Shown here piece by piece: positions 1 to 11,709 of a DNA stretch of 11,709 bases. Position 1 is the first letter of the stretch. The number at the start of each line of letters is the position of its first letter. The stretch comes from a virus: the UHGV virus genome UHGV-0058547; one strand, written 5' to 3'. The notes under the pieces were generated by a model. The model did no database searches. It saw nothing but the letters and a program-made list of their open reading frames with translations, and was not told the origin of the DNA. Position numbers and translations under genes: made by a program.

Positions 1-699
1 ACCGGAGGAAGTAGGAACAGTAGCGGACTCACCACCACCGGACTCACCACCACCGGACTCACCACCGCCAGACTCACCACCACCATTTTGGGGGGTTGAG
101 GGTTTATCAGAGGGGTCAGCTACAGCACCTGTAGGCTTCCATGTTGCAGCGCAAACAGTACCATCACCCTGACAAACAATGACACCAGTAGCCTCATATT
201 CACAGCCGTTATAGTAGATATAGCGACCACCATCATATGAATCAACATTATTAAATACACCTTCTTCTGGCGGCTTCGCTTCACAAATTTCTTCTGGTGT
301 CGGGTCAGTAGGTTTTTCATCAGGAACAGAACGCTGAATATTACCAACAATATAAGCCGTTAAAGACCAATATTTATCCTTCTGCCCTGGTGAATCGCTG
401 TAAGTACAATCGCCAGTAAAAACAAGACGGAATTCAGAATCAGGCCAGATACCCTCATAAGTTGGTTTAATCCGAGTAAATACACTCTGAGCACTGGATT
501 TAGCACCCTGACAAGCGGAGGCCTGCATAGCAGCATCAATATAGTAAACCGTTATCTTAGAGCCATCCTGATTGGTTATTTGCTTACTTTCAGCATAGGC
601 AGAACTTTGATAAGTGGATTTAGTAATGCTTTCCCATGACTCAGCATGTGAAAAAGGAGAAATGAGGACAGCGGAAAGAATTAATATTTTCCTTCTCAT
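1..699 (-). CDS. gIII: Adsorption/minor coat protein pIII, N-terminal portion (partial; ORF runs off the left edge)
   Basis: ATG at 699 on the minus strand; signal-peptide-like [19 protein letters not shown]. The motif [28 protein letters not shown] resembles the M13 g3p N1 (TolA-binding) segment YEGCLWNATGVVVCTGDETQCYGTWVP (recalled) and is preceded by about 150 aa of another domain, an IKe-like domain order. It ends in (GGGES)4. The frame is open from 699 to 1; I translated 1..141 and the start codons myself. Confidence 0.85.
25..84 (-). repeat. Four tandem 15-nt repeats (ggactcaccaccacc and variants) encoding the (GGGES)4 linker of pIII
   Basis: Direct reading: copies at 25-39, 40-54, 55-69 and 70-84; translation on the minus strand gives GGGES four times. 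Confidence 0.9.
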
Positions 700-707
700 A
701 GTAACCC

Positions 708-736
708 GCTTTAATAAAGGGGCAACGAGTGCCCCT
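708..736 (-). terminator. Candidate rho-independent terminator after gVIII
   Basis: On the phage strand: 7-bp stem AGGGGCA / UGCCCCU (718-724 pairs with 730-736), 5-nt loop, then U-rich UUAUUAAA. It sits between the gVIII stop (746) and the gIII start (699), where Ff phages have the strong gVIII terminator. Confidence 0.5.
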
Positions 737-745
737 GAGTGAAAT

Positions 746-2742: not shown

Positions 2743-2925
2743 ATGGCAAAGCGCACGACTTATAACGTGACGGAAGAAAGAAAAATGAAACTAGAACGAC
2801 TGGCTATAAATGCCAGTGTAAAACTAGGAAAAACAATTACATGGACAGAGATTTTAGGTTATCTGATTGATAACTACTCTAAAGATGCAGCAGAAGATCT
2901 CATGTCTGCCAAACAAAAGGATTAA
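2743..2925 (+). CDS. Small ribbon-helix-helix (CopG/Arc/MetJ-like) DNA-binding protein; candidate phage repressor/regulator
   Basis: 60 aa. Basic N-terminus plus alternating strand KRTTYNVT, then helix EERKMKLERLAINASVKLG, loop and second helix ILGYLIDNY: the classic RHH pattern. Transcribed divergently from gII, as rstR is from rstA in CTXphi. Confidence 0.6.
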   Translation: MAKRTTYNVTEERKMKLERLAINASVKLGKTITWTEILGYLIDNYSKDAAEDLMSAKQKD

Positions 2926-2943
2926 GTACCACGAATGGTACAA

Positions 2944-2970
2944 ACGTGCAGTATTACCTACACTGCACGT
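2944..2970 (+). other. Stem-loop (8-bp stem ACGTGCAG / CTGCACGT, 11-nt loop) followed by TCTTTATT; possible attenuator/terminator or protein binding site
   Basis: Direct reading: 2944-2951 is the reverse complement of 2963-2970. Lies between the RHH stop (2925) and the next ATG (3014). Confidence 0.3.
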
Positions 2971-3013
2971 TCTTTATTGTGCGGATTTTGAACAGCAACA
3001 AAGGATCAAAAGG

Positions 3014-3436
3014 ATGAGTAGAAATAACGAAACAAGCGGCGTTGAACTGGTTGTTGTAGGCGTATTTGCTTTCTGTCTGGCAGTTGTTGCCTGGCTAATG
3101 AAAACTTTCGATGTTGAATGGCAAACAGCACTGGAAACTGCGCCTGGCCTGATAGTCTGGCTGCTTGTTGTCGGTGCGGGGATCTTTTTCGGGATCAAAA
3201 TGGAAACTGGCCTTATTCGCTGGGGTGCTCCACTGGCGATCGCCCTTCTGATTCCGGTATTCAAGCCAATTCTTAAGGAAGCTGCCGGAGTTCGTGAAAC
3301 GGGTGGGCTGGTTTTCGATGATATGGTTTCGTGGTATGGAACTGGCTGGGGAATGTCTCTGATGTTCTTCGGGATTCTTATCGTCGGATACGGTCTGCTT
3401 TATTGGTGGCACAGAAGGAATTCATATTATTGGTGA
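3014..3436 (+). CDS. 140-aa integral membrane protein with four predicted TM helices; function unknown
   Basis: ATG at 3014 preceded by AAGGA. Hydrophobic stretches ELVVVGVFAFCLAVVAWLM, GLIVWLLVVGAGIFFGI, APLAIALLIPVF and MSLMFFGILIVGYGLLYWW. The longer track ORF from 2867 lacks an RBS, and its extension is unlikely. Confidence 0.6.
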   Translation: MSRNNETSGVELVVVGVFAFCLAVVAWLMKTFDVEWQTALETAPGLIVWLLVVGAGIFFGIKMETGLIRWGAPLAIALLIPVFKPILKEAAGVRETGGLVFDDMVSWYGTGWGMSLMFFGILIVGYGLLYWWHRRNSYYW

Positions 3437-3502
3437 ATGTCAATCACTTGAATTTACAGGTTTTTTATAATTTCAGCCCGCGCTAGTTTGATATTGTGAA
3501 AG

Positions 3503-4084
3503 GTGAAGATGAGTATGCAACCGAATGAAGAAATGGACCTCAGGAAATTTTACGCAGAGGGAACAGCTGACTACTTAAAAACTAAAATCAAAAAAAGCGA
3601 ACGACTTTTAAAAATAAACCAATATCTATCATTTGCCCTCCCTGTCCTAGTTGGAGGATACGCATCGGTTGATCACAGCTCCAAATATTTTGATTTTTTA
3701 GTTTGGGGCACAGGGATATTATCAGTGATAGTCTTGCTTTCTAATTTATACACACTGGTCATGAAGACTGATGAAAATTTATCTCGATATCTGGAATCAT
3801 ACTCTTTCAATAAACTCCTAACTGATTTGTATGGCGAACTGTCGAGCATGTTTAAATCAAAGACAGGCAACCAGCAACCCGCTAACCATTTGTTTTCAGT
3901 GATAAAATCAAAAGATGACTTCAATGCCAAGGAAGATGAAAAATATGTTAGCAATAATGATAAGAAACGGATTATGTTCGACATTCTGGTAAAGAAAAAT
4001 AAAGAATGCGTACGTTGCAATAAAATACCGACTAAATTTAACAAGCGGAAAGGTTGCACAAATTGTGGCAATCTCGTGAAATAA
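3503..4084 (+). CDS. 2-TM membrane protein with C-terminal CxxC-x12-CxxC zinc ribbon (SLATT-like topology); function unknown
   Basis: N-terminal helix, then TM hairpin YLSFALPVLVGGYASV / LVWGTGILSVIVLLSNLYTLV, a charged helical region, and C-terminal ECVRCNKIPTKFNKRKGCTNCGN. Start ambiguous between GTG 3503, ATG 3509 and ATG 3515; GAAAGG precedes. Confidence 0.6.
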   Translation: MKMSMQPNEEMDLRKFYAEGTADYLKTKIKKSERLLKINQYLSFALPVLVGGYASVDHSSKYFDFLVWGTGILSVIVLLSNLYTLVMKTDENLSRYLESYSFNKLLTDLYGELSSMFKSKTGNQQPANHLFSVIKSKDDFNAKEDEKYVSNNDKKRIMFDILVKKNKECVRCNKIPTKFNKRKGCTNCGNLVK

Positions 4085-4095
4085 AGGAGAAACAA

Positions 4096-4287
4096 ATGAG
4101 TTATAAAGTAGATCAAGTCAAAGCTCTCTGGCTTCAATTGACTGATGCGGAGAAAAAAGAATTTACAACATATCTTTTTAATGGTGAAAAAAAATCCTTA
4201 CGTGAAGGATTCGAAAGTTTTAGTGTGAATAAAAGCACTACAATGCAATTTGGTGATGCAAACGTCTGCCCTGCTTGCGGAAAATAA
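4096..4287 (+). CDS. 63-aa small protein ending in CPACGK; function unknown
   Basis: AAAGGAGA 5 nt upstream of the ATG at 4096; begins 12 nt after the preceding stop (operon-like); followed by a strong terminator. Confidence 0.5.
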   Translation: MSYKVDQVKALWLQLTDAEKKEFTTYLFNGEKKSLREGFESFSVNKSTTMQFGDANVCPACGK

Positions 4288-4329: not shown

Positions 4330-4366
4330 AGGCCGCTGCGGGATTCGATTTTCGCAGCGGCCTTTT
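4330..4366 (+). terminator. Rho-independent terminator ending the RHH/membrane-protein operon
   Basis: 11-bp GC-rich stem AGGCCGCTGCG (4330-4340) pairing with CGCAGCGGCCT (4353-4363), 12-nt loop, then TTTT. Confidence 0.75.
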
Positions 4367-4396
4367 CAACATAACGAGTCCTACATTATGCGCACC
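4364..4396 (-). other. dif-like XerC/XerD recombination site (site 2), long central region
   Basis: Minus strand reads GGTGCGCATAA-TGTAGGACTCG-TTATGTTGAAA. E. coli dif is GGTGCGCATAA-TGTATA-TTATGTTAAAT. XerC arm 11/11, XerD arm 9/11, central region 11 nt. Confidence 0.65.
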
Positions 4397-4555
4397 AACA
4401 TAAACCAAGGGAGAATCCAGTGATTTGTGGACATCCTTGTTCTCGCAGAATATGGATGTGCTGAGTCTGGTTGGTTCGCCTAACGGTTGAAATGTCTTGC
4501 GGCCTTCACTGGGCTTGTTGAGTGTTCTGAATGTTCGCTTCAGGAACTGATTCAA

Positions 4556-5647
4556 ATGAAACGATTAATACTTGCTGCGACTGTAATAAGTGCAAGCCTG
4601 CTGCCATTTACCTGTTCGGCAAATGCCGACTCACTGGGTATCAATAAAGACTGCGATAACCATCCTGTCAGCCAGTACGGCATGGACACCATTACCGCAT
4701 TCAGTCAGTACAAGACGGAATCGAAAAAATTTAAAGATGCACTGACTGCGTTCTGCAATAAAGGCAAAACCATGGGCGACATGGGATTTGAAGCTGCCAA
4801 TGCTCACTCTCTTGCTGAAGCAAGGAAATGGACTGACTCCAGTCTTCCGGGGGGAAATGAAGAGCAGAAAAAATTTTCAGCAGCCATGGGGAGCCTGCTT
4901 TACTATGCAATGCTGAATGGATTCTCTGGTTTTGACTATCCCAGGTCGCCCGAGCAAAAAGAAAAATCAGTAAGCACATTTAATCCAAATGAGATATGTG
5001 ATGACATATCATCTAAAGCAGCCAAATATTCAACCTCGAATCTCCCCCCTCAAGTACAGATTTCATTAGCTGAGTGGAATCAAATCAAAGGCGAGTTTCA
5101 GATGGTGTGTTTTGCGGGAGTTATGGCGGGTAACAATCGCCAGTCGGTTGACTCAAAAATATTGGCTGGAATGAATGATATAGGCCCAGAAGTGAATTTG
5201 AGTGCTTATCGTTCTGGTTCGGAATACCCAAAGCCTCGCAGCAAAAACAACACGGAAAAAATTGATGCTACAGCAAGGGAGAAAGCGGCTGCAAAGAAGA
5301 AAGCAGATGCAGCCAGAAAACAAAGTGCCACCAACAAAACAAAGCAGGCTGACGATTATAAATCCAGGAGTGTTCGCCTTGACTCCCCCGATTTTCAACG
5401 CTTTCAGTCTTCACTCAGAAATGAATTTATGCGGCGAATTGGTGATGCGAAGCGTTTTTCAGGAAAAGAATGTTCAATAAATGTCTGGATGTCACAGAAA
5501 GGTGAGGTTCTGTCAGCCAGGAAGGAATCCGGAGATGAAGAGCTTTGCTCTGTGGTATTGCAGGCATCGAAGGGAATGAGGCTTAGCCCTATGAGTAATG
5601 AAGTTTACGGAGTGTTCCGTAATCCATCCCTCAACTTTAAATTCTAG
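4556..5647 (+). CDS. Secreted (signal-peptide) protein with K/A-rich helical linker and C-terminal TolA domain III-like domain
   Basis: Likely start MKRLILAATVISASLLPFTCSANA (signal peptide) at 4556, AGGA 10 nt upstream. C-terminus GKECSINVWMSQKGEVLSARKESGDEELCSVVLQASKGMRLSPMSNEVYGVFRNPSLNFKF aligns with the E. coli TolA C-terminus GKTCTLRIKLAPDGMLLDIKPEGGDPALCQAALAAAKLAKIPKPPSQAVYEVFKNAPLDFKP (recalled). Preceded by a Lys/Ala-rich stretch like TolA domain II. No TM anchor. Confidence 0.7.
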   Translation: MKRLILAATVISASLLPFTCSANADSLGINKDCDNHPVSQYGMDTITAFSQYKTESKKFKDALTAFCNKGKTMGDMGFEAANAHSLAEARKWTDSSLPGGNEEQKKFSAAMGSLLYYAMLNGFSGFDYPRSPEQKEKSVSTFNPNEICDDISSKAAKYSTSNLPPQVQISLAEWNQIKGEFQMVCFAGVMAGNNRQSVDSKILAGMNDIGPEVNLSAYRSGSEYPKPRSKNNTEKIDATAREKAAAKKKADAARKQSATNKTKQADDYKSRSVRLDSPDFQRFQSSLRNEFMRRIGDAKRFSGKECSINVWMSQKGEVLSARKESGDEELCSVVLQASKGMRLSPMSNEVYGVFRNPSLNFKF

Positions 5648-6102
5648 TTCATGCCGGGTAAGAGTCTTCACTTTTGTGGGGATTCTTATTTTCTTTTTGT
5701 TGTTATTGTCAGCTCAAGCCGCATGGCTCTCCTGCGGAGGGCTTAATATTGGGATAATATTGAAACATCAAAGACAGATGCAGATAAGTACAGAAAACCG
5801 ATAATAACAATTAAACAGTAAGTCTGTATAAGAGAATAACAGAATATATAAAAGAATTAACCCCGGTTGGCGATTTGGCGATGGTAACACAGATATTTAA
5901 ATCTGTAAAATGGTTATATTTATTTTTTTATTTACCCACCCTATCGGGTGATTCCGGCGCAGTCCTGACCCTGAGTACGCTCCCTGTAATGCACCATGCG
6001 CAACGCCAGAGTCAGTGGCAATGCAAAGCCATGACTAAGGCCAAAATCACCCCAAAACCGCATACAGGCAGTCAGCGGTCACGATGTAAGCAAAATACGA
6101 GA

Positions 6103-6122
6103 TACTGTATAAATAAACAGCC
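6103..6122. promoter_or_regulatory. LexA (SOS) box-like palindrome TACTGTATAAATAAACAGCC
   Basis: CTGT-N8-ACAG with an AT-rich spacer; 16/20 matches to the E. coli consensus TACTGTATATATATACAGTA. Contains a TATAAA -10-like hexamer. Lies in an 0.8-kb noncoding stretch about 340 bp upstream of the HNH_3-like gene. Confidence 0.5.
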
Positions 6123-6460
6123 CTGCAATTGTCAGGCATATGCGCCCTCTCACACTGACACCCCCCCTGTTCCGCCCTGTTTATTGCATCTGTACAGCCA
6201 TCTGAGCGCATCCGGCTGCAACCTGACGCATTTGCATGTGCCGTATTAATGATGCCACACAGAGCGCCTGACGGTTTGTACCATCATCTGTCACAATTCA
6301 TTGTTTGAAAAATTTTACATTTTATTTTTTGAAGTGATTACATAAATATAATCCATCTCTCCGGCATGAGTGCCTGACTGAAGGTGAATCGAAAAAGAAG
6401 GACCCGCCCCGATTCTTTTTACTCCCTTCCCTTTCAGTTAAATCACGCAGGAGAAATATC

Positions 6461-7408
6461 ATGCCCCGCTACAAAAAAGGTATCCGTAATAATTGCTTTC
6501 ATCAAAATTATACTCATGACGTATTGTTCCCCGGCGCAACATTCAGAACCCGACATAATGGAGAATGCGCCATTCTTGGCCGCTCTGATGATAAATCAAG
6601 GCGAGGCTATTATGTCGTGGAATTCAAAGACAGTGGCATCATCAAGGAAGCCTATGGCTCGCATATTAAAACTGGTTCTGTATCAGACGAAGCTTTTCCA
6701 TCATCGGAGGAAGAACGACGAAAGTTACTGATGACACCAAAATATTACGGCGTCGGATATATTGGTAATGGATGTCATTCAACTATTGAAAACACCCGAA
6801 CACACCAAAGAACGAGAGCATTCATACTCTGGCATAACATGCTGGCAAGGTGCTACATGACAACCAAAGGGAAGCAGTATTTTAAAGGCTACAAAGGTGT
6901 CACTGTATGCGAGCGATGGCATAACTTTCAGAACTTCTGCAATGACCTTCCAAAATTGCATGGCTACAACAAATGGAAGGATAATCCGGGAGAGTATGAG
7001 CTCGATAAGGATTACTCACATCGCCGGATTTATTCTGCTGACACGGTGGCATTTATCAGCACAGAAGAAAATGCCAGGGAAGCTGGATTACGACGCGTTG
7101 CCATGAAGATTCCTTCCGGGCATTATCATGAAATAAATAAAATTCGAGATGAGATATTAATGGAGGCTGAAGATGAATTAAAAAACAATCAAATTCATTA
7201 TGAAGTTGTTCTTGACGGGAATATGAAAGTAATCCTGTGTGAAACTCCTTATGGCACAGTGTTGTTCTGGCCTCTCACAAAAAAGATTCAGCGTAATTGC
7301 TACATGATTGATGGTGATGTACAGGTTTATGTTTATTACCTGCGCTGGCTCATACTTCAGTGGGAAAACAGAAATCCCGACATAAACTGTGTTGCTACAA
7401 CCTGTTGA
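6461..7408 (+). CDS. 315-aa protein with central degenerate HNH_3-like module; putative DNA-binding protein or inactive homing-endonuclease relative
   Basis: AGGAG 7 nt upstream of the ATG. Central motif W-HNM-LARCY ... YFKGYKGVTVCERWHNFQNFCND ... YELDKDYSHRRIYSADTVAFISTEENAR matches the phage HNH_3-family pattern W..M..RC ... YGGRGI.VC..W..F..F ... IDRID.DGNY.P.NCRW.T..EQ..N (recalled), but the canonical catalytic residues are not evident. Confidence 0.6.
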   Translation: MPRYKKGIRNNCFHQNYTHDVLFPGATFRTRHNGECAILGRSDDKSRRGYYVVEFKDSGIIKEAYGSHIKTGSVSDEAFPSSEEERRKLLMTPKYYGVGYIGNGCHSTIENTRTHQRTRAFILWHNMLARCYMTTKGKQYFKGYKGVTVCERWHNFQNFCNDLPKLHGYNKWKDNPGEYELDKDYSHRRIYSADTVAFISTEENAREAGLRRVAMKIPSGHYHEINKIRDEILMEAEDELKNNQIHYEVVLDGNMKVILCETPYGTVLFWPLTKKIQRNCYMIDGDVQVYVYYLRWLILQWENRNPDINCVATTC

Positions 7409-7589
7409 TGATGCTATAAAATAGTCATAAAATAACCGGCATTTCACAATGCTATCTATTAATAAGAAGAAACGAACATTCAGGATGTATCTGTAATTCC
7501 GCTGTTGCAGTGATTTTCTGTGCCAGAAAACAAGTGACAACGTCTGGCAGCTCATTGCAGAAGGCTAAATGCCAGCACTTCGTGCAGTC

Positions 7590-7619
7590 ATTTAACATGT
7601 TCAACACATTATGCGCACC
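7590..7619 (-). other. dif-like XerC/XerD recombination site (site 1)
   Basis: Minus strand reads GGTGCGCATAA-TGTGTTGA-ACATGTTAAAT. XerC arm 11/11 to E. coli dif; XerD arm 9/11, with the last 9 nt ATGTTAAAT identical; 8-nt central region. Confidence 0.7.
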
Positions 7620-7657
7620 AATGGTAAGGATGGCGGGAACTGGCGTTACCGGTGCCG

Positions 7658-7891
7658 TCATTGGTCACAGACCGTAATCCACTGGCCCAGGACGTCTTTC
7701 AGGCAATGTTGGCATAAATCCAGTTTTAAGCGATTACTGTCACCAAAAATTGAACCGTATCCAGCTAAGTGATTAACAGACAGAAACTCATTGAACTCAA
7801 TGTCATCTACCACCGTCTTCGCATGGCGACCACAGCGATCGCAGGTCTTCGCACATAACATTACAGTATCGCTGGATGTGAAAAATTGCAT
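7658..7891 (-). CDS. 77-aa Cys-rich protein (CxxxCxxC ... CxxC); putative zinc-binding protein
   Basis: AGGAG 5 nt upstream of the ATG at 7891; six cysteines including C-x2-C pairs at residues 17/20 and 60/63. Same orientation as the phage core, downstream of gIV. Confidence 0.55.
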   Translation of the reverse strand: MQFFTSSDTVMLCAKTCDRCGRHAKTVVDDIEFNEFLSVNHLAGYGSIFGDSNRLKLDLCQHCLKDVLGQWITVCDQ

Positions 7892-8008
7892 TTTATCTCC
7901 TCGTAATGCTGCCGCGCCGAATCAGCAATAACGCTAAAAAAACAGAATTGTTCGGCTTGGCCAACCCCTGACACTAACAAAAGCAAGTTTTGTCATTGTC
8001 CGGGGTTA

Positions 8009-8317
8009 TCATATAAACCAATAGACCGTCCTTACGCCATTCTGGTTATCAATAACATAGCCGCATTGTTTCCTTAAAAATTCTTCTGCTAAATCAATGG
8101 CTTTTACAGAAATCTCATAAGAAGGAAGTAAAGTGTATCCTTTCCCTTCACTGGCAGCTGCTTTGATCGCATCCAGAGTATTATCAATCAGTAACAGAGC
8201 AAGTGATGCTTCATTTACCTGAGCCGAAGAACTTCTGGCTGCAAGTGTCATTGTTTTTGCTTCTTCCGCTGTAATCGTTCGTTCTGCCAGAGCAGATAAA
8301 ATCCCATAAGAATCCAT
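8009..8317 (-). CDS. 102-aa hypothetical protein
   Basis: ORF in phage orientation immediately downstream of the gIV-end hairpin; weak GGGG RBS; no recognisable motif. Confidence 0.4.
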   Translation of the reverse strand: MDSYGILSALAERTITAEEAKTMTLAARSSSAQVNEASLALLLIDNTLDAIKAAASEGKGYTLLPSYEISVKAIDLAEEFLRKQCGYVIDNQNGVRTVYWFI

Positions 8318-8342
8318 TAGTTACCCCAATCAATAATGTCCA

Positions 8343-8391
8343 TTTGATGGATAGCGAGCAGGGCTCACGCACCTACCCGCTATCCATCAAA
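8343..8391. repeat. Perfect 14-bp inverted repeat (TTTGATGGATAGCG ... CGCTATCCATCAAA) with 21-nt spacer, overlapping the gIV stop
   Basis: 8343-8356 is the exact reverse complement of 8378-8391. Position corresponds to the start of the Ff intergenic region (gIV terminator / packaging-signal hairpins). Confidence 0.6.
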
Positions 8392-9652
8392 GTGGACGAA
8401 TGATATGTGCTGTAAGCAAAATATACATAATACGCTGTTCATTGCTGTCTGCCTTGCTACTGAAAATCCAGCCTATAAGAGGAATTTTACTTATAACTGG
8501 AACTGAACGCTCGGCATTGCTGAACGATGAATCGATAAGCCCCCCCAATAACAACGTCTGACCATCCTTAATCTGGACTGTCGTCTGAATCTGGCGCTGA
8601 TTAGTAATAATATCGGATGCCTGATCATCATTGCTGATTGAATCAGCGCGAGTGTCGATAGTCAGAACTAGTTGCCCGTTACCCATGACAACAGGCGTTA
8701 CCTTGAGAGAAACGCCAACATCATGACGCTCGATAGTCTGAAACGGATTATTTACCCCGGCAGATTCGCCCGTTACCTTTCCGGTGATAAACGGCACATT
8801 CTTACCTACGGAAATGTAACCAGTCTGACCAGACTGAGTAAGAATACGCGGCGTTGAAATCACCTTAGAGCGTGAATTACTCTGGACAGCACGCAGAGAC
8901 AGCGCCAACACGTTACCATCAAAAATACCAAAAGAACCGCCCGCCGTAGAAAGAGCGCTACCCAGTGCAGAAGTATTAAAGCCCCCCGCAACCTTATGAC
9001 CGGATGCAGAACCTGCCGCAAACGATAAATCAACGCCATCAGACAAGCTGGTTTCAAACATCAGCGACTGAATGAGAACCTGATCGCGGGCAACATCCAC
9101 AGAATTGATAAAATCGGACAGAACCGGCAGCAGCTCGTCAGGCGCAGAAACAATCAGCGAGTTATTGCCTGGATAATCCACGACATTACCACCACCATTA
9201 GAATCAAGATAAATTTTAATCAGTTGCTGAACATCGGACGATCTAACTTTTGTCAGCTTAAAATTTCTGACCGTAAGCGCCACAGGTACTGGCTGGTAAG
9301 ATGGCTCAGAAGGAAAAGTATCATAAGACTGGTTATCAGAATCATCGGAATCCGAAACCATCTGTGAAGGTAATTTAGACGGCAAAGAGACTACCGCAGG
9401 ATTGCCAGAAAGCATGACAAAACCGTTAGCATTCAGAACAGACTTAAAGAAATCATCAATATTTGTTGGATTAACATCAGCATTAAATACGGTTACGTTT
9501 CCTTTAATATCAGGATTAACAATAACAGGCTTGCCAGTTTTTGAAGAATACCACTGAACAAATGAGCGAACAGATGAATTATTTAAATTAACAGTTTCAG
9601 CAGAAACGCAGAATGAACAGGCAAATAAAAAAGCAACAATAACAGAGCGCAT
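8387..9652 (-). CDS. gIV: Secretin pIV (phage export channel)
   Basis: 421 aa from ATG 9652 (AGGAG 8 nt upstream). N-terminus MRSVIVAFLFACSFCVSAETVNLNNSSVRSFVQWY parallels M13 pIV MKLLNVINFVFLMFVSSSSFAQVIEMNNSPLRDFVTWY; conserved secretin core GGSFGIFDGNVLALSLRAVQSNS..., VPFITGKVTGESAGVNNPFQTIERHDVGVSLKV, DGQTLLLGGL, IPLIGWIFSS (recalled). The track start at 9745 is a spurious upstream extension overlapping gI. Confidence 0.93.
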   Translation of the reverse strand: MRSVIVAFLFACSFCVSAETVNLNNSSVRSFVQWYSSKTGKPVIVNPDIKGNVTVFNADVNPTNIDDFFKSVLNANGFVMLSGNPAVVSLPSKLPSQMVSDSDDSDNQSYDTFPSEPSYQPVPVALTVRNFKLTKVRSSDVQQLIKIYLDSNGGGNVVDYPGNNSLIVSAPDELLPVLSDFINSVDVARDQVLIQSLMFETSLSDGVDLSFAAGSASGHKVAGGFNTSALGSALSTAGGSFGIFDGNVLALSLRAVQSNSRSKVISTPRILTQSGQTGYISVGKNVPFITGKVTGESAGVNNPFQTIERHDVGVSLKVTPVVMGNGQLVLTIDTRADSISNDDQASDIITNQRQIQTTVQIKDGQTLLLGGLIDSSFSNAERSVPVISKIPLIGWIFSSKADSNEQRIMYILLTAHIIRPL

Positions 9653-10754: not shown

Positions 10755-11096
10755 TTAAATCACCCTGTTTGCATAATCAAGAAATTTTTGTTTTAAATCG
10801 AAAACAAAAACACTGATACGAGTAACCATAATAACGTTAACACACGCCTGAAAATGGTCAGGCAATACAGACGCCATTAAATGGGAGAAATCAGCAGGTA
10901 AACCGTTATACATGACCTCAGCAAGGTACTGCATTAAAAGCGTAACAGTTGTTGTAATTAATGCGACCAATGCAAAGGCGATTAATCCTGTTCTGGTAGC
11001 AAGTCGAGCTAAAAAAACCGCCACATAGCCAATAAACAAAGGAACAAGACCAATAAGAAAACGCAACAATGCAGGAATACCTAATAATAAAGGCAT
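10755..11096 (-). CDS. gVI: Minor coat protein pVI
   Basis: MPLLLGIPALLRFLIG... versus M13 pVI MPVLLGIPLLLRFLGF... (recalled). ATG at 11096 overlaps the gIII TGA by one base; the track's GTG at 11099 is one codon upstream. Confidence 0.88.
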   Translation of the reverse strand: MPLLLGIPALLRFLIGLVPLFIGYVAVFLARLATRTGLIAFALVALITTTVTLLMQYLAEVMYNGLPADFSHLMASVLPDHFQACVNVIMVTRISVFVFDLKQKFLDYANRVI

Positions 11097-11709
11097 CACT
11101 CACCCCCTTTGCGAAGCAATGAAGTTAAAGAAGTAAAGACATACCAGAACGTAAGGCAATAAAAAACCCATGAAAGAACATCTTTAATAGTCAGTAATTT
11201 ATCGCAACCAATATCAATCTGATAAACCTCTCCGGGAAAAATAATAAAATCAGAGCAGCCGTTACCATTGGGTAAATTAGGCAGCATAGCACCTTTATTT
11301 AAAAATGCTTCCCATAAAGCACCGTGAGAATCCTTTTCAATTCCCAATTCAGAATCAGCTAAAGTAGAAGCGCCATCTAATTCAGAGTCGCCCTTTCCAT
11401 AACGAGAATCACCACCTGAAGGGTCAGCAAAACGGCCAGCCCCCCGCGTAAGATTGTTAATGGAATCGTCAAGACGATTTATATTATTCCTGGTTTGTTC
11501 ATCGGCATTTTTTTTATCATCTGATGAAGTGTCTTTCTCCGTTAATTTATCATGAATATCGCTGGCTATTTTGGGTGAAGCACCTTCGATCGCAGACTGA
11601 ATATCACCTTTAGAAAGACTGGAACCACTAGAGCCACCGCCAGAACTACCGCCAGAACTACCGCCAGAACTACCGCCAGAACTACCGCCACCGGACTCAC
11701 CACCGGACT
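11096..11709 (-). CDS. gIII: Adsorption/minor coat protein pIII, C-terminal portion (partial; ORF enters from the right edge)
   Basis: Frame is open from the window edge to the TGA at 11096-11098 (translated by hand). C-terminus ...NLPNGNGCSDFIIFPGEVYQIDIGCDKLLTIKDVLSWVFYCLTFWYVFTSLTSLLRKGGE parallels M13 g3p ...ECRPFVFGAGKPYEFSIDCDKINLFRGVFAFLLYVATFMYVFSTFANILRNKES (recalled). Preceded by (GGSS)n and GGES linker repeats. Confidence 0.88.
   Translation of the reverse strand, partial: SGGESGGGSSGGSSGGSSGGSSGGGSSGSSLSKGDIQSAIEGASPKIASDIHDKLTEKDTSSDDKKNADEQTRNNINRLDDSINNLTRGAGRFADPSGGDSRYGKGDSELDGASTLADSELGIEKDSHGALWEAFLNKGAMLPNLPNGNGCSDFIIFPGEVYQIDIGCDKLLTIKDVLSWVFYCLTFWYVFTSLTSLLRKGGE
11641..11688 (-). 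repeat. Four tandem 12-nt repeats (cagaactaccgc) encoding the (GGSS)n linker of pIII
   Basis: Direct reading of 11641-11688; minus-strand translation gives alternating GG/SS. Confidence 0.9.

What the first reader, a model, noticed from the sequence alone, without database searches (positions are those of the whole stretch)
7658..8317. Two extra ORFs inserted in phage orientation between gIV and the first dif-like site
A 102-aa protein and a 77-aa Cys-rich protein with a strong RBS follow gIV on the phage strand, where Ff phages have only noncoding DNA. Together they could be a toxin/antitoxin or regulator pair or morons; the Cys spacing (CxxC ... CxxC) suggests a zinc ribbon.
Basis: inference. 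Interest (0 to 1): 0.45.

Follow-up and report, generated by a model that had tools for sequence, protein, structure and literature searches.

The report
Two accessory genes after phage gene IV
The two small genes are real and conserved, but they are the already-described, still uncharacterised accessory genes of the CUS-1/YpfΦ filamentous prophage of E. coli and the plague bacillus; they are two independently swappable cargo genes, not a toxin/antitoxin pair.

Summary
ORF102 (8009-8317, -) and ORF77 (7658-7891, -) follow gene IV on the phage strand and end 38 nt before a dif-like Xer site. Both are under purifying selection (dN/dS 0.06-0.14). The exact proteins occur on at least 1000 public contigs each. 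The window is a CUS-1/YpfΦ-type dif-integrating inovirus. By position, these ORFs correspond to YPO2280a/YPO2281, which the literature lists as having "no predictable functions", so this is a rediscovery. New here: the two genes are separable. ORF102 occurs without ORF77 in a Salmonella relative. ORF77 occurs without ORF102 in three other inoviruses and on plasmids. A conserved hairpin (5 compensatory pairs) separates two cargo slots that hold unrelated genes, or none, in relatives. The toxin/antitoxin-pair reading is therefore not supported. ORF77 belongs to a large family absent from Pfam and NCBIfam (1236 representative clusters). Its members are acidic, have four conserved cysteines, and are carried by mobile elements. 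Some are fused to, or lie next to, ParS/MbcA-type antitoxin toxin-binding domains. I infer, with low confidence, a protein-binding role in toxin-antitoxin or defence circuits. ORF102 is a lineage-restricted acidic α/β protein with no informative relatives.

The parts
8009..8317 (-). ORF102: 102-aa acidic (pI 4.7) cytoplasmic protein in cargo slot A. Identical to WP_000378924.1 and a member of phrog_4115. By position it is the equivalent of YpfΦ YPO2280a.
7658..7891 (-). ORF77: 77-aa acidic (pI 5.4) four-Cys zinc-binding protein in cargo slot B. Identical to WP_001159442.1 and a member of phrog_5435. By position it is the equivalent of YpfΦ YPO2281.
7897..7902 (-). Shine-Dalgarno sequence GAGGAG, 5 nt upstream of the ORF77 ATG.
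   Evidence: Read directly from the sequence. Conserved in the plasmid-like homologue L004.
7903..7935 (-). Conserved leader (…ATTGCTGATTCGGCGCGGCAGCATTAC…) upstream of ORF77. Nearly identical in L004 and L015 and partly conserved in the UPΦ-like L087. Role unknown.
7962..8008 (-). Conserved ~20-bp-stem hairpin that starts right after the ORF102 stop codon and separates the two cargo slots.
   Evidence: Single-sequence fold: z -3.5 for the 121-nt intergenic segment that contains it. Alignment fold: 18 pairs, 5 with compensatory double changes, and G·U pairs on the phage-sense strand. It is present upstream of ORF77 homologues in L004, L015, L017 and L079. It is present without ORF77 in L008, L087/L088 and L094. 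No Rfam family matches.
8338..8397 (-). Very stable hairpin overlapping the gIV stop codon, just upstream of ORF102. No T-run follows it.
   Evidence: -46.4 kcal/mol, z -7.7.
8387..9652 (-). Gene IV (secretin), the last core morphogenesis gene. It forms the upstream boundary of slot A.
   Evidence: (PF00263/PF03958).
7620..7657 (-). Conserved left flank of the attachment site (…CGCCAGTTCCCGCCATCCTTACCATT). It is shared by CUS-like phages and the Phytobacter inovirus and is also present in UPΦ-like phages.
7590..7619 (-). dif-like Xer site with an 8-nt spacer. Here it is the junction between the prophage copy and the neighbouring 3.2-kb element X.
   Evidence: The identical site lies at the right end of X in E. 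coli C10 (L003 21920-21949).

Best explanation
SHOWN. The interval holds two real protein-coding accessory genes of a CUS-1/YpfΦ-type, dif-integrating filamentous prophage. They sit in two separate cargo slots between gene IV and the phage's Xer attachment site. Slot A runs from gIV to a conserved hairpin. Slot B runs from the hairpin to attP. Each slot has been filled independently during evolution:
- Slot A holds ORF102, an unrelated 82-aa basic protein, or nothing.
- Slot B holds ORF77, an unrelated 65-aa acidic protein, a reverse-strand gene, or non-coding DNA.
The two ORFs are therefore morons, not an obligate pair. By position they correspond to the YpfΦ ORFs YPO2280a and YPO2281, which occupy the position that ctxAB has in CTXΦ.

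SHOWN. ORF77 is one member of a large family with no Pfam or NCBIfam model. Members are about 75 aa, acidic, and have four conserved Cys residues. They are carried by inoviruses, plasmids, transposon-like islands and other phages. About 5% of representative members are fused C-terminally to the ParS/MbcA/Xre toxin-binding antitoxin domain, and others lie immediately downstream of a ParS-like or HTH antitoxin gene.

INFERRED (roughly 30% for the specific mechanism). ORF77 is a cytoplasmic zinc-stabilised protein-binding module. It may plug into type II toxin-antitoxin or abortive-infection circuits as an antitoxin-like neutraliser or modulator. That would help the episomal or integrated phage to persist in its host.

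ORF102 is a lineage-restricted acidic α/β protein. It is probably also a host-modulating cytoplasmic factor, and nothing further can be inferred. Both are probably transcribed by read-through from the gII-gIV operon, because no consensus promoter or intrinsic terminator is predicted between gIV and attP.
For: Identity of the element:
- Core inovirus synteny is seen.
- A perfect dif lies about 40 nt after ORF77 at the prophage end.
- The phage forms tandem arrays at dif next to hipA.
- A 7938-bp circular replicative form in Salmonella carries identical copies of both ORFs.
- The literature describes two unknown ORFs next to attR in YpfΦ and CUS-1 (PMC4266046).

Real genes: dN/dS 0.06-0.14; full-length PHROG matches; at least 1000 contigs each.

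Separability:
- ORF77 homologue (71% identity) in a plasmid-like contig without ORF102.
- ORF102 homologue (60% identity) after gIV in a Salmonella phage without ORF77.
- DNA homology breakpoints define an ORF77 cassette at about 7667-7935.
- ORF77 homologues lie directly after gIV in Phytobacter, K. michiganensis and metagenomic inoviruses.
- A UPΦ-like phage and a divergent CUS-like phage carry unrelated genes in the same slots around the same hairpin. The UPΦ paper notes two unknown genes in the same region (PMC7307601).

Hairpin covariation.

ORF77 family:
- 1236 representative clusters at E<=1e-3 and 610 at E<=1e-10.
- Conserved residues C17, D18, C20, E32, E35, G44, S47, G50, D51, D58, C60, Q61 and C63.
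- Median pI 4.9, and no conserved basic residue except K65.
- Fusions among 146 representatives: Xre_MbcA_ParS_C in 8, DUF4926 in 2, TacA1 in 1. NCBIfam Xre_ParS_antitoxin matches 7.
- A ParS-like gene lies immediately upstream in L031/32, L038/39/46/50 and L090.
- A HigA-like HTH gene overlaps the start of the family member in L063.
- A GNAT gene lies 20 nt downstream in L042.
- Other homologues sit on small plasmids with SIR2 and ParE and next to Nampt plus an NMNAT/Nudix gene.

No promoter or terminator consensus is found on the - strand between gIV and attP.
Against: - The function of either protein is untested. No partner, zinc binding or phenotype has been shown.
- The ORF77 structure model is unreliable (pLDDT 55), so even the fold class is uncertain.
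- The link to toxin-antitoxin modules rests on a minority of family members. No single conserved neighbour exists across 60 genomic loci.
- The position of some family members downstream of antitoxin genes fits equally well with the domain being a toxin or effector.
- In the E. coli CUS lineage the two ORFs always travel together (49 of 49 genomes). This may only reflect recent clonal spread, so cooperation between them in this phage is not excluded.
- I did not compare directly with Y. pestis sequence. The equivalence to YPO2280a/YPO2281 rests on position and on the published 99% identity between CUS-1 and YpfΦ.
Confidence: 0.6

Rival explanations
1. One reading: ORF102 and ORF77 form a two-gene toxin/antitoxin (addiction) module that stabilises the episome or prophage.
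For: The two are small adjacent co-directional genes on a mobile element. Relatives of ORF77 are fused to antitoxin domains. The two always co-occur in E. coli CUS prophages. Cargo of related phages includes a Doc toxin, so toxin-antitoxin genes are plausible cargo here.
Against: Each gene occurs without the other in natural relatives. A 117-nt spacer with a conserved hairpin separates them, rather than overlap or tight coupling. Neither matches Pfam, NCBIfam or PADLOC models. Both proteins are acidic, whereas most toxins are basic.
Confidence: 0.06
2. ORF77 is a small zinc-finger DNA-binding transcription regulator. It would be the stand-alone version of the N-terminal domain that replaces the HTH/RHH DNA-binding domain in ParS/TacA-type antitoxins. 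It might autoregulate through the inverted repeat upstream of its gene.
Confidence: 0.18
3. The ORF77-type domain is itself a small toxin or effector, neutralised in cis or in trans by ParS/HigA-type antitoxins. On the phage it would act as an orphan effector, for example in superinfection exclusion or host growth modulation.
For: In L031/32, L038/39/46/50, L090 and L063 the family member occupies the toxin position immediately downstream of an antitoxin-type gene. The invariant acidic residues and a Gly-rich loop could form a metal or active site.
Against: Stand-alone copies are stably carried at high copy number with no adjacent antitoxin (up to 16 places in one genome; replicative form). 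One member is fused to a whole TacA antitoxin domain and one is followed by a GNAT gene, which places the domain on the antitoxin side. A 75-aa enzyme would be unusual.
Confidence: 0.1
4. ORF77, with or without ORF102, is an accessory factor for Xer-mediated integration or excision (XafT-like, or a directionality factor) that acts at the adjacent attP.
For: ORF77 or its homologue is the last gene before attP/dif in three or four different inovirus lineages. The ORF77-attP junction is conserved between CUS-like and Phytobacter phages.
Against: Slot B is empty or holds unrelated genes in other dif-integrating relatives that have the same attP flank. Most family members are in contexts without adjacent Xer sites, such as plasmids, transposon-like islands and chromosomes. 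There is no similarity to XafT/DUF3653. The protein is acidic.
Confidence: 0.06
5. The ORFs encode virulence or fitness factors that act on the animal host, as positional analogues of ctxAB.
For: They occupy the same genomic position as ctxAB in CTXΦ. YpfΦ and CUS-1 give a modest in-vivo fitness advantage (PMC4266046).
Against: By inspection of the two sequences, neither protein has a signal peptide or a hydrophobic membrane-spanning stretch; overall hydropathy is near zero (GRAVY about 0). ORF77 relatives are widespread in environmental, non-pathogenic bacteria.
Confidence: 0.03

Closest known systems
YPO2280a and YPO2281 of Yersinia pestis phage YpfΦ, and their homologues in E. coli prophage CUS-1
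   Same: Two small ORFs of unknown function lie immediately after the secretin/assembly module and next to attR/dif in a dif-integrated, tandemly repeated inovirus. The E. coli hosts here include the K1/B2-type strain UM146.
   Different: Nothing of substance. This window appears to be that same phage lineage, with a different variable cargo region and an extra Xer-bounded element next to it. Direct alignment with the Y. pestis sequences was not done.
The two unknown genes of UPΦ phages (Lineavirus-like, dif-integrating; PMC7307601)
   Same: Same architecture: gIV, small ORF, conserved hairpin, small ORF, attP with the same left flank. This is seen in the UPΦ-like replicative form L087.
   Different: The proteins are unrelated (an 82-aa protein of pI 11.5 and a 65-aa acidic protein, against ORF102 and ORF77). 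Only the non-coding framework is shared.
ctxAB of CTXΦ (a moron at the gIV/zot-distal end of a dif-integrating inovirus)
   Same: Cargo genes at the equivalent position next to the Xer attachment site (PMC4266046).
   Different: ctxAB encodes a secreted AB5 toxin. ORF102 and ORF77 show no signal peptide on inspection and no similarity to it.
ParS/MbcA/Xre-RES type II antitoxins (Pfam PF09722, NCBIfam NF049845)
   Same: The ORF77-type domain forms the N-terminal half of some proteins whose C-terminal half is this toxin-binding domain.
   Different: ORF77 itself has no ParS_C domain and no adjacent RES/ART toxin. It is only the stand-alone N-terminal module.
MqsA/YgiT-type zinc-binding antitoxin domain
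   Same: A CxxC…CxxC zinc site in a small domain associated with toxin-antitoxin systems. The resemblance is recalled from memory.
   Different: Profile comparison gives probability 0.6%, and no NCBIfam YgiT model is hit. ORF77 is not a member.

Membership tests
CUS-1/YpfΦ accessory ORFs (YPO2280a/YPO2281 equivalents) | Located directly downstream of the secretin gene (pIV) and adjacent to the dif/attR end of the prophage | tested here: met
   gIV, then ORF102, then ORF77, then dif within about 40 nt.
CUS-1/YpfΦ accessory ORFs (YPO2280a/YPO2281 equivalents) | Host phage is the CUS-1/YpfΦ lineage: core gene order, dif integration, tandem repeats | tested here: met
   tandem prophages next to hipA at the terminus, at >=99% identity in strain UM146 and other E. 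coli genomes. The description in PMC4266046 matches.
CUS-1/YpfΦ accessory ORFs (YPO2280a/YPO2281 equivalents) | Sequence identity to the Y. pestis CO92 proteins | not tested
   No Y. pestis sequence was retrieved. Equivalence rests on the published 99% nucleotide identity between CUS-1 and YpfΦ across these ORFs.
PHROG families phrog_4115 and phrog_5435 | Full-length significant match to the family profile | tested here: met
   E 2e-68 (residues 1-102 of 102) and E 4.5e-46 (residues 1-77 of a 96-position profile). Both families are of unknown function.
Type II toxin-antitoxin pair | Tightly linked or overlapping two-gene operon | tested here: not met
   A 117-nt spacer containing a conserved structured element separates the genes.
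Type II toxin-antitoxin pair | The partners co-occur across relatives | tested here: not met
   Each gene is found without the other.
Type II toxin-antitoxin pair | Similarity of at least one partner to a known toxin or antitoxin family | tested here: not met
   Pfam, NCBIfam and PADLOC give no significant hits for either ORF. Only distant relatives of ORF77 carry fused antitoxin domains.
Type II toxin-antitoxin pair | One product is toxic and the other neutralises it | not testable with these tools
   Needs expression experiments.
Zinc ribbon / treble-clef zinc finger | Two conserved CxxC (or equivalent) ligand pairs | tested here: met
   C17 is present in 53 of 54 stand-alone homologues, and C20, C60 and C63 in all 54. 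C20, C60 and C63 are invariant in all 146 representatives and C17 is present in at least 90%.
Zinc ribbon / treble-clef zinc finger | Fold: two β-hairpin knuckles (ribbon), or knuckle + β-hairpin + helix (treble clef) | tested here: inconclusive
Zinc ribbon / treble-clef zinc finger | Binds zinc | not testable with these tools
   Needs metal analysis of purified protein.
MqsA/YgiT zinc-finger antitoxin | Profile-level similarity to the MqsA N-terminal domain or the YgiT models | tested here: not met
   hhalign probability 0.6%. No NCBIfam hit.
XafT-like Xer activation factor | DUF3653/HTH domain, with presence tied to Xer sites | tested here: not met
   No Pfam match. Most family members are not next to Xer sites.

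The most novel reading that the evidence does not exclude
ORF77 would be the phage-borne stand-alone form of a large, undescribed zinc-binding domain family (1236 clusters at 50% identity). Such a domain would act as a portable toxin-binding or defence-interfering module, in effect an 'orphan antitoxin' used by inoviruses and plasmids to disarm host toxin-antitoxin or abortive-infection systems. The conserved hairpin between the two ORFs would be a host-recognised single-strand element, such as a complementary-strand origin. It would also serve as the recombination joint that lets dif-integrating enterobacterial inoviruses exchange cargo.
Probability: 0.15. Interest if true: 0.6.

Novelty: already known. 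Interest (0 to 1): 0.3.

Why it matters
YpfΦ and CUS-1 give Y. pestis and extra-intestinal E. coli a measurable fitness advantage in animals. The 2014 YpfΦ review (PMC4266046) names the function of the terminal ORFs as a key open question.

This analysis does not answer that question, but it narrows it in four ways:
- The two ORFs should be studied separately, not as a pair.
- Neither shows a signal peptide or membrane segment on inspection, so they probably act inside the bacterium.
- ORF77 is not phage-specific. It belongs to a widespread family carried by mobile elements and linked to antitoxin domains, which gives a concrete hypothesis and many homologues for structural work.
- The region has a modular slot-hairpin-slot-attP layout shared by otherwise unrelated enterobacterial inoviruses. 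This explains how cargo is exchanged between them.

Tried and rejected
- Pfam, NCBIfam and PADLOC scans of both ORFs gave nothing significant. Permissive Pfam scans of 54 family members gave only generic zinc-finger noise.
- The INPHARED phage collection had no match by DNA (near and distant modes) or by protein.
- A PDB sequence search with the ORF77 profile found nothing.
- A profile search for more ORF102 relatives found only the same 10 clusters.
- A search for one conserved neighbour of ORF77-family genes across 60 loci found none.
- MqsA similarity was rejected.
- Rfam gave only sub-threshold miRNA-like hairpin matches for the two hairpins.
- The promoter/terminator scan found no - strand sites in 7400-8700.
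- The apparent 'G2P-ORF102 fusion' members of the ORF102 cluster are ordinary gII fragments, linked into the cluster through one chimera, P0019. I rejected them as evidence of a recurrent fusion.
- The Gonzalez et al. 2002 CUS-1 paper was not available.

Full report
**What is in the window.** The ORF list shows an inovirus on the - strand. Reading in the phage direction, the genes are gII (2615-1521), gV (1509-1192), gVIII (988-746) and the 5' part of gIII (about 700-1). From the other end of the window come the 3' part of gIII, then gVI (11099-10755), gI/Zot (10754-9660) and gIV/secretin (9652-8387). These are followed by ORF102 (8317-8009) and ORF77 (7891-7658). The window starts and ends inside the glycine-rich repeat of gIII, and the two ends do not join in frame. 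It is therefore one unit cut from a tandem arrangement.

Megablast against complete E. coli genomes and the annotated regions identify the element. It is the CUS-1/YpfΦ-type filamentous prophage, integrated in tandem copies at dif next to hipA.

**The observation.** It is confirmed.
- Both ORFs are at the stated coordinates.
- ORF77 has a GAGGAG Shine-Dalgarno sequence 5 nt before its ATG, and C17xxC20…C60xxC63.
- A dif-like site, GGTGCGCATAA-TGTGTTGA-ACATGTTAAAT, lies at 7590-7619, 38 nt after the ORF77 stop.

The ORFs are real genes.
- dN/dS is 0.064 and 0.106 for ORF77 (against L004 and L015) and 0.141 for ORF102 (against L008).
- They match phrog_5435 and phrog_4115 over their full length.
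- They are annotated as WP_001159442.1 and WP_000378924.1.
- Each exact sequence occurs on at least 1000 contigs.
- In 5426 complete E. coli genomes, 49 carry the 660-bp region at >=99% identity. 49 genomes also carry gIV at >=99% identity.

**Already described.** The YpfΦ review (PMC4266046) makes three relevant statements. [quoted passage not shown] CTXΦ carries ctxAB at this position. The UPΦ paper (PMC7307601) reports two unknown genes in the region that is intergenic in M13, IKe and I2-2. The finding is therefore a rediscovery. I did not align with Y. pestis sequence directly.

**The two genes are separable.**
- A 71%-identical ORF77 homologue (P0008) sits in a plasmid-like contig (ParM/StbA, Plasmid_stab_B, UmuD/IMS, methyltransferase). 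That contig has no ORF102 and no phage genes.
- A 60%-identical ORF102 homologue (P0021) follows gIV in a Salmonella CUS-like prophage that has no ORF77.
- DNA homology between the window and the plasmid-like locus covers 8007-7677, that is, the intergenic region plus ORF77.
- Homology with the Salmonella phage covers 8500-7936 and 7666-7589. The ORF77 cassette (about 7935-7667) is replaced there by about 300 nt of unrelated sequence.
- ORF77 homologues lie directly after gIV, without ORF102, in three other inoviruses. These are from Phytobacter (79% identity, dif about 40 nt downstream), K. michiganensis (56%) and a metagenome (57%).
- A UPΦ-like 9.5-kb replicative form has a different layout: gIV, an 82-aa basic ORF, the hairpin, a 65-aa acidic ORF, then attP.
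- A divergent CUS-like prophage in E. coli ERP001 has the 82-aa gene in slot A and a reverse-strand gene in slot B.
- A 7938-bp circular Salmonella 'plasmid' is the replicative form with identical ORF102 and ORF77. Its variable cargo, here a Doc toxin, lies beyond attP.

**The framework between the genes.** A hairpin starts right after the ORF102 stop (7962-8008, - strand). It is conserved in six diverged sequences. It has 18 pairs, five of them with compensatory double changes, and G·U pairs on the phage-sense strand. It occurs both with and without ORF77.

The leader just upstream of ORF77 and the left flank of attP are also conserved across otherwise different phages. A second, very stable hairpin overlaps the gIV stop (-46 kcal/mol, z -7.7). 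No Rfam family matches either hairpin. No consensus promoter or terminator is found on this strand, so read-through from the gIV operon is the simplest expectation.

The layout is therefore slot A, hairpin, slot B, attP, with independently exchanged cargo in each slot.

**ORF77.** Word-based homology search found only 14 clusters. An exhaustive profile search found 1236 representative clusters at E<=1e-3 and 610 at E<=1e-10.

The consensus is CDRCG…E.QEF…GYGS.FGDG…DLCQHC.K..LG. C20, C60 and C63 are invariant and C17 is present in at least 90% of members. Stand-alone members are acidic, with median pI 4.9 and median net charge -4. The conserved residues are Asp/Glu/Gly/Ser/Gln, and there is no conserved basic patch. 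The family has no Pfam or NCBIfam model and no relative with a solved structure.

Links to toxin-antitoxin modules:
- Of 146 representatives, 8 carry a C-terminal Xre_MbcA_ParS_C toxin-binding domain, 2 carry DUF4926 and 1 carries TacA1. NCBIfam of them Xre/ParS antitoxins.
- In several Betaproteobacteria a ParS-like gene lies immediately upstream of the family member.
- In one locus a HigA-like HTH gene overlaps its start, and in another a GNAT gene follows 20 nt downstream.

Other homologues sit on small Rep3 plasmids with SIR2 and ParE, on Klebsiella IncF plasmids, next to TniQ-like genes, and next to Nampt plus an NMNAT/Nudix gene. No single neighbour is conserved.

My inference is that ORF77 is a zinc-stabilised protein-binding module connected with toxin-antitoxin or defence circuits. 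Acting as a neutraliser or modulator is more likely than acting as a DNA binder. The toxin, DNA-binding and Xer-accessory readings remain open and are listed as rivals.

**Verdict.** The feature is real, conserved and already known, and its function is unknown. 'Morons' and 'zinc-binding' are supported. 'Toxin/antitoxin or regulator pair' is not. The added value is threefold: the separability of the two genes, the slot-hairpin-slot-attP architecture shared across inovirus lineages, and the placement of ORF77 in a large antitoxin-linked family borne by mobile elements.

Noticed in passing
window 4363-7619 (element X = 4394-7589): A separate ~3.2-kb element is bounded by two Xer-type junction sites: 4363-4393 (-), GGTGCGCATAA-TGTAGGACTCG-TTATGTTGAAA, and 7590-7619 (-). 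It lies between two phage copies here, and between the last phage copy and a hipA remnant in E. coli C10. Its 386-aa ORF (4487-5647, +) has a TolA C-terminal domain (PF06519, E 6e-11). TolA-C is the co-receptor bound by filamentous-phage g3p, so this may be a dif-integrated element encoding a g3p decoy or superinfection-exclusion protein.
   Followed up: partly
window 7962-8008 (-); also L004, L008, L015, L017, L079, L087, L094: A conserved hairpin with compensatory changes and sense-strand G·U pairs is shared by several otherwise dissimilar dif-integrating enterobacterial inoviruses and by two plasmid contexts. No Rfam family matches, and IKe, I2-2 and M13 records give no match. It could be a single-strand element (complementary-strand origin or packaging signal), an RNA structure, or the joint for cargo exchange.
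   Followed up: partly
window 8338-8397 (-): A very stable hairpin (-46.4 kcal/mol, z -7.7) overlaps the gIV stop codon, with no T-run after it. This is the position where Ff phages have the packaging-signal/terminator hairpin. An analogous hairpin follows gIV in E. coli ERP001.
   Followed up: no
window 2743-4287 (+); L001, L002, L003, L078: The region between attP and the 60-aa regulator gene is the truly variable cargo region of this phage lineage. It carries a 'mobilome CxxCx(11)CxxC protein' here and in C10, an STM4504/CBY_0614 family protein in NCTC9104, a PD-(D/E)XK nuclease in strain 1368KP, and a Doc (death-on-curing) toxin in the Salmonella replicative form.
   Followed up: no
P0019 (Citrobacter youngae, 3550-bp contig): A single chimeric ORF joins the first ~43 residues of gII to residues 35-102 of ORF102. 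The join lies at a short stretch of amino-acid similarity (gII …HEAT…, ORF102 …NEAS…); the underlying DNA was not examined. It looks like a deletion derivative (miniphage-like). It also caused gII fragments to be clustered with ORF102 in the 90% clusters.
   Followed up: partly
NZ_CP092647.1 (E. coli EC5502): This genome has 16 separate places matching the ORF102-ORF77 region, an unusually high number of prophage copies in one assembly.
   Followed up: no
L014 (JARKOR010000214.1, labelled Candidatus Nanosynbacter MAG): This contig carries a 100%-identical ORF77, ORF102 and a perfect E. coli dif. It is almost certainly an enterobacterial contig mis-binned into a Saccharibacteria MAG.
   Followed up: no
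window 1-745 and 11096-11709: The window begins and ends inside the GGGES-repeat linker of gIII, and the two ends do not join in frame. The sequence is therefore not a cleanly circularised genome.
   Followed up: yes
L002 19076-19918 (E. coli E1): A truncated gII copy plus a second copy of the 60-aa regulator gene follows the complete prophage. This is reminiscent of RS1-type satellite or partial elements next to CTXΦ.
   Followed up: no
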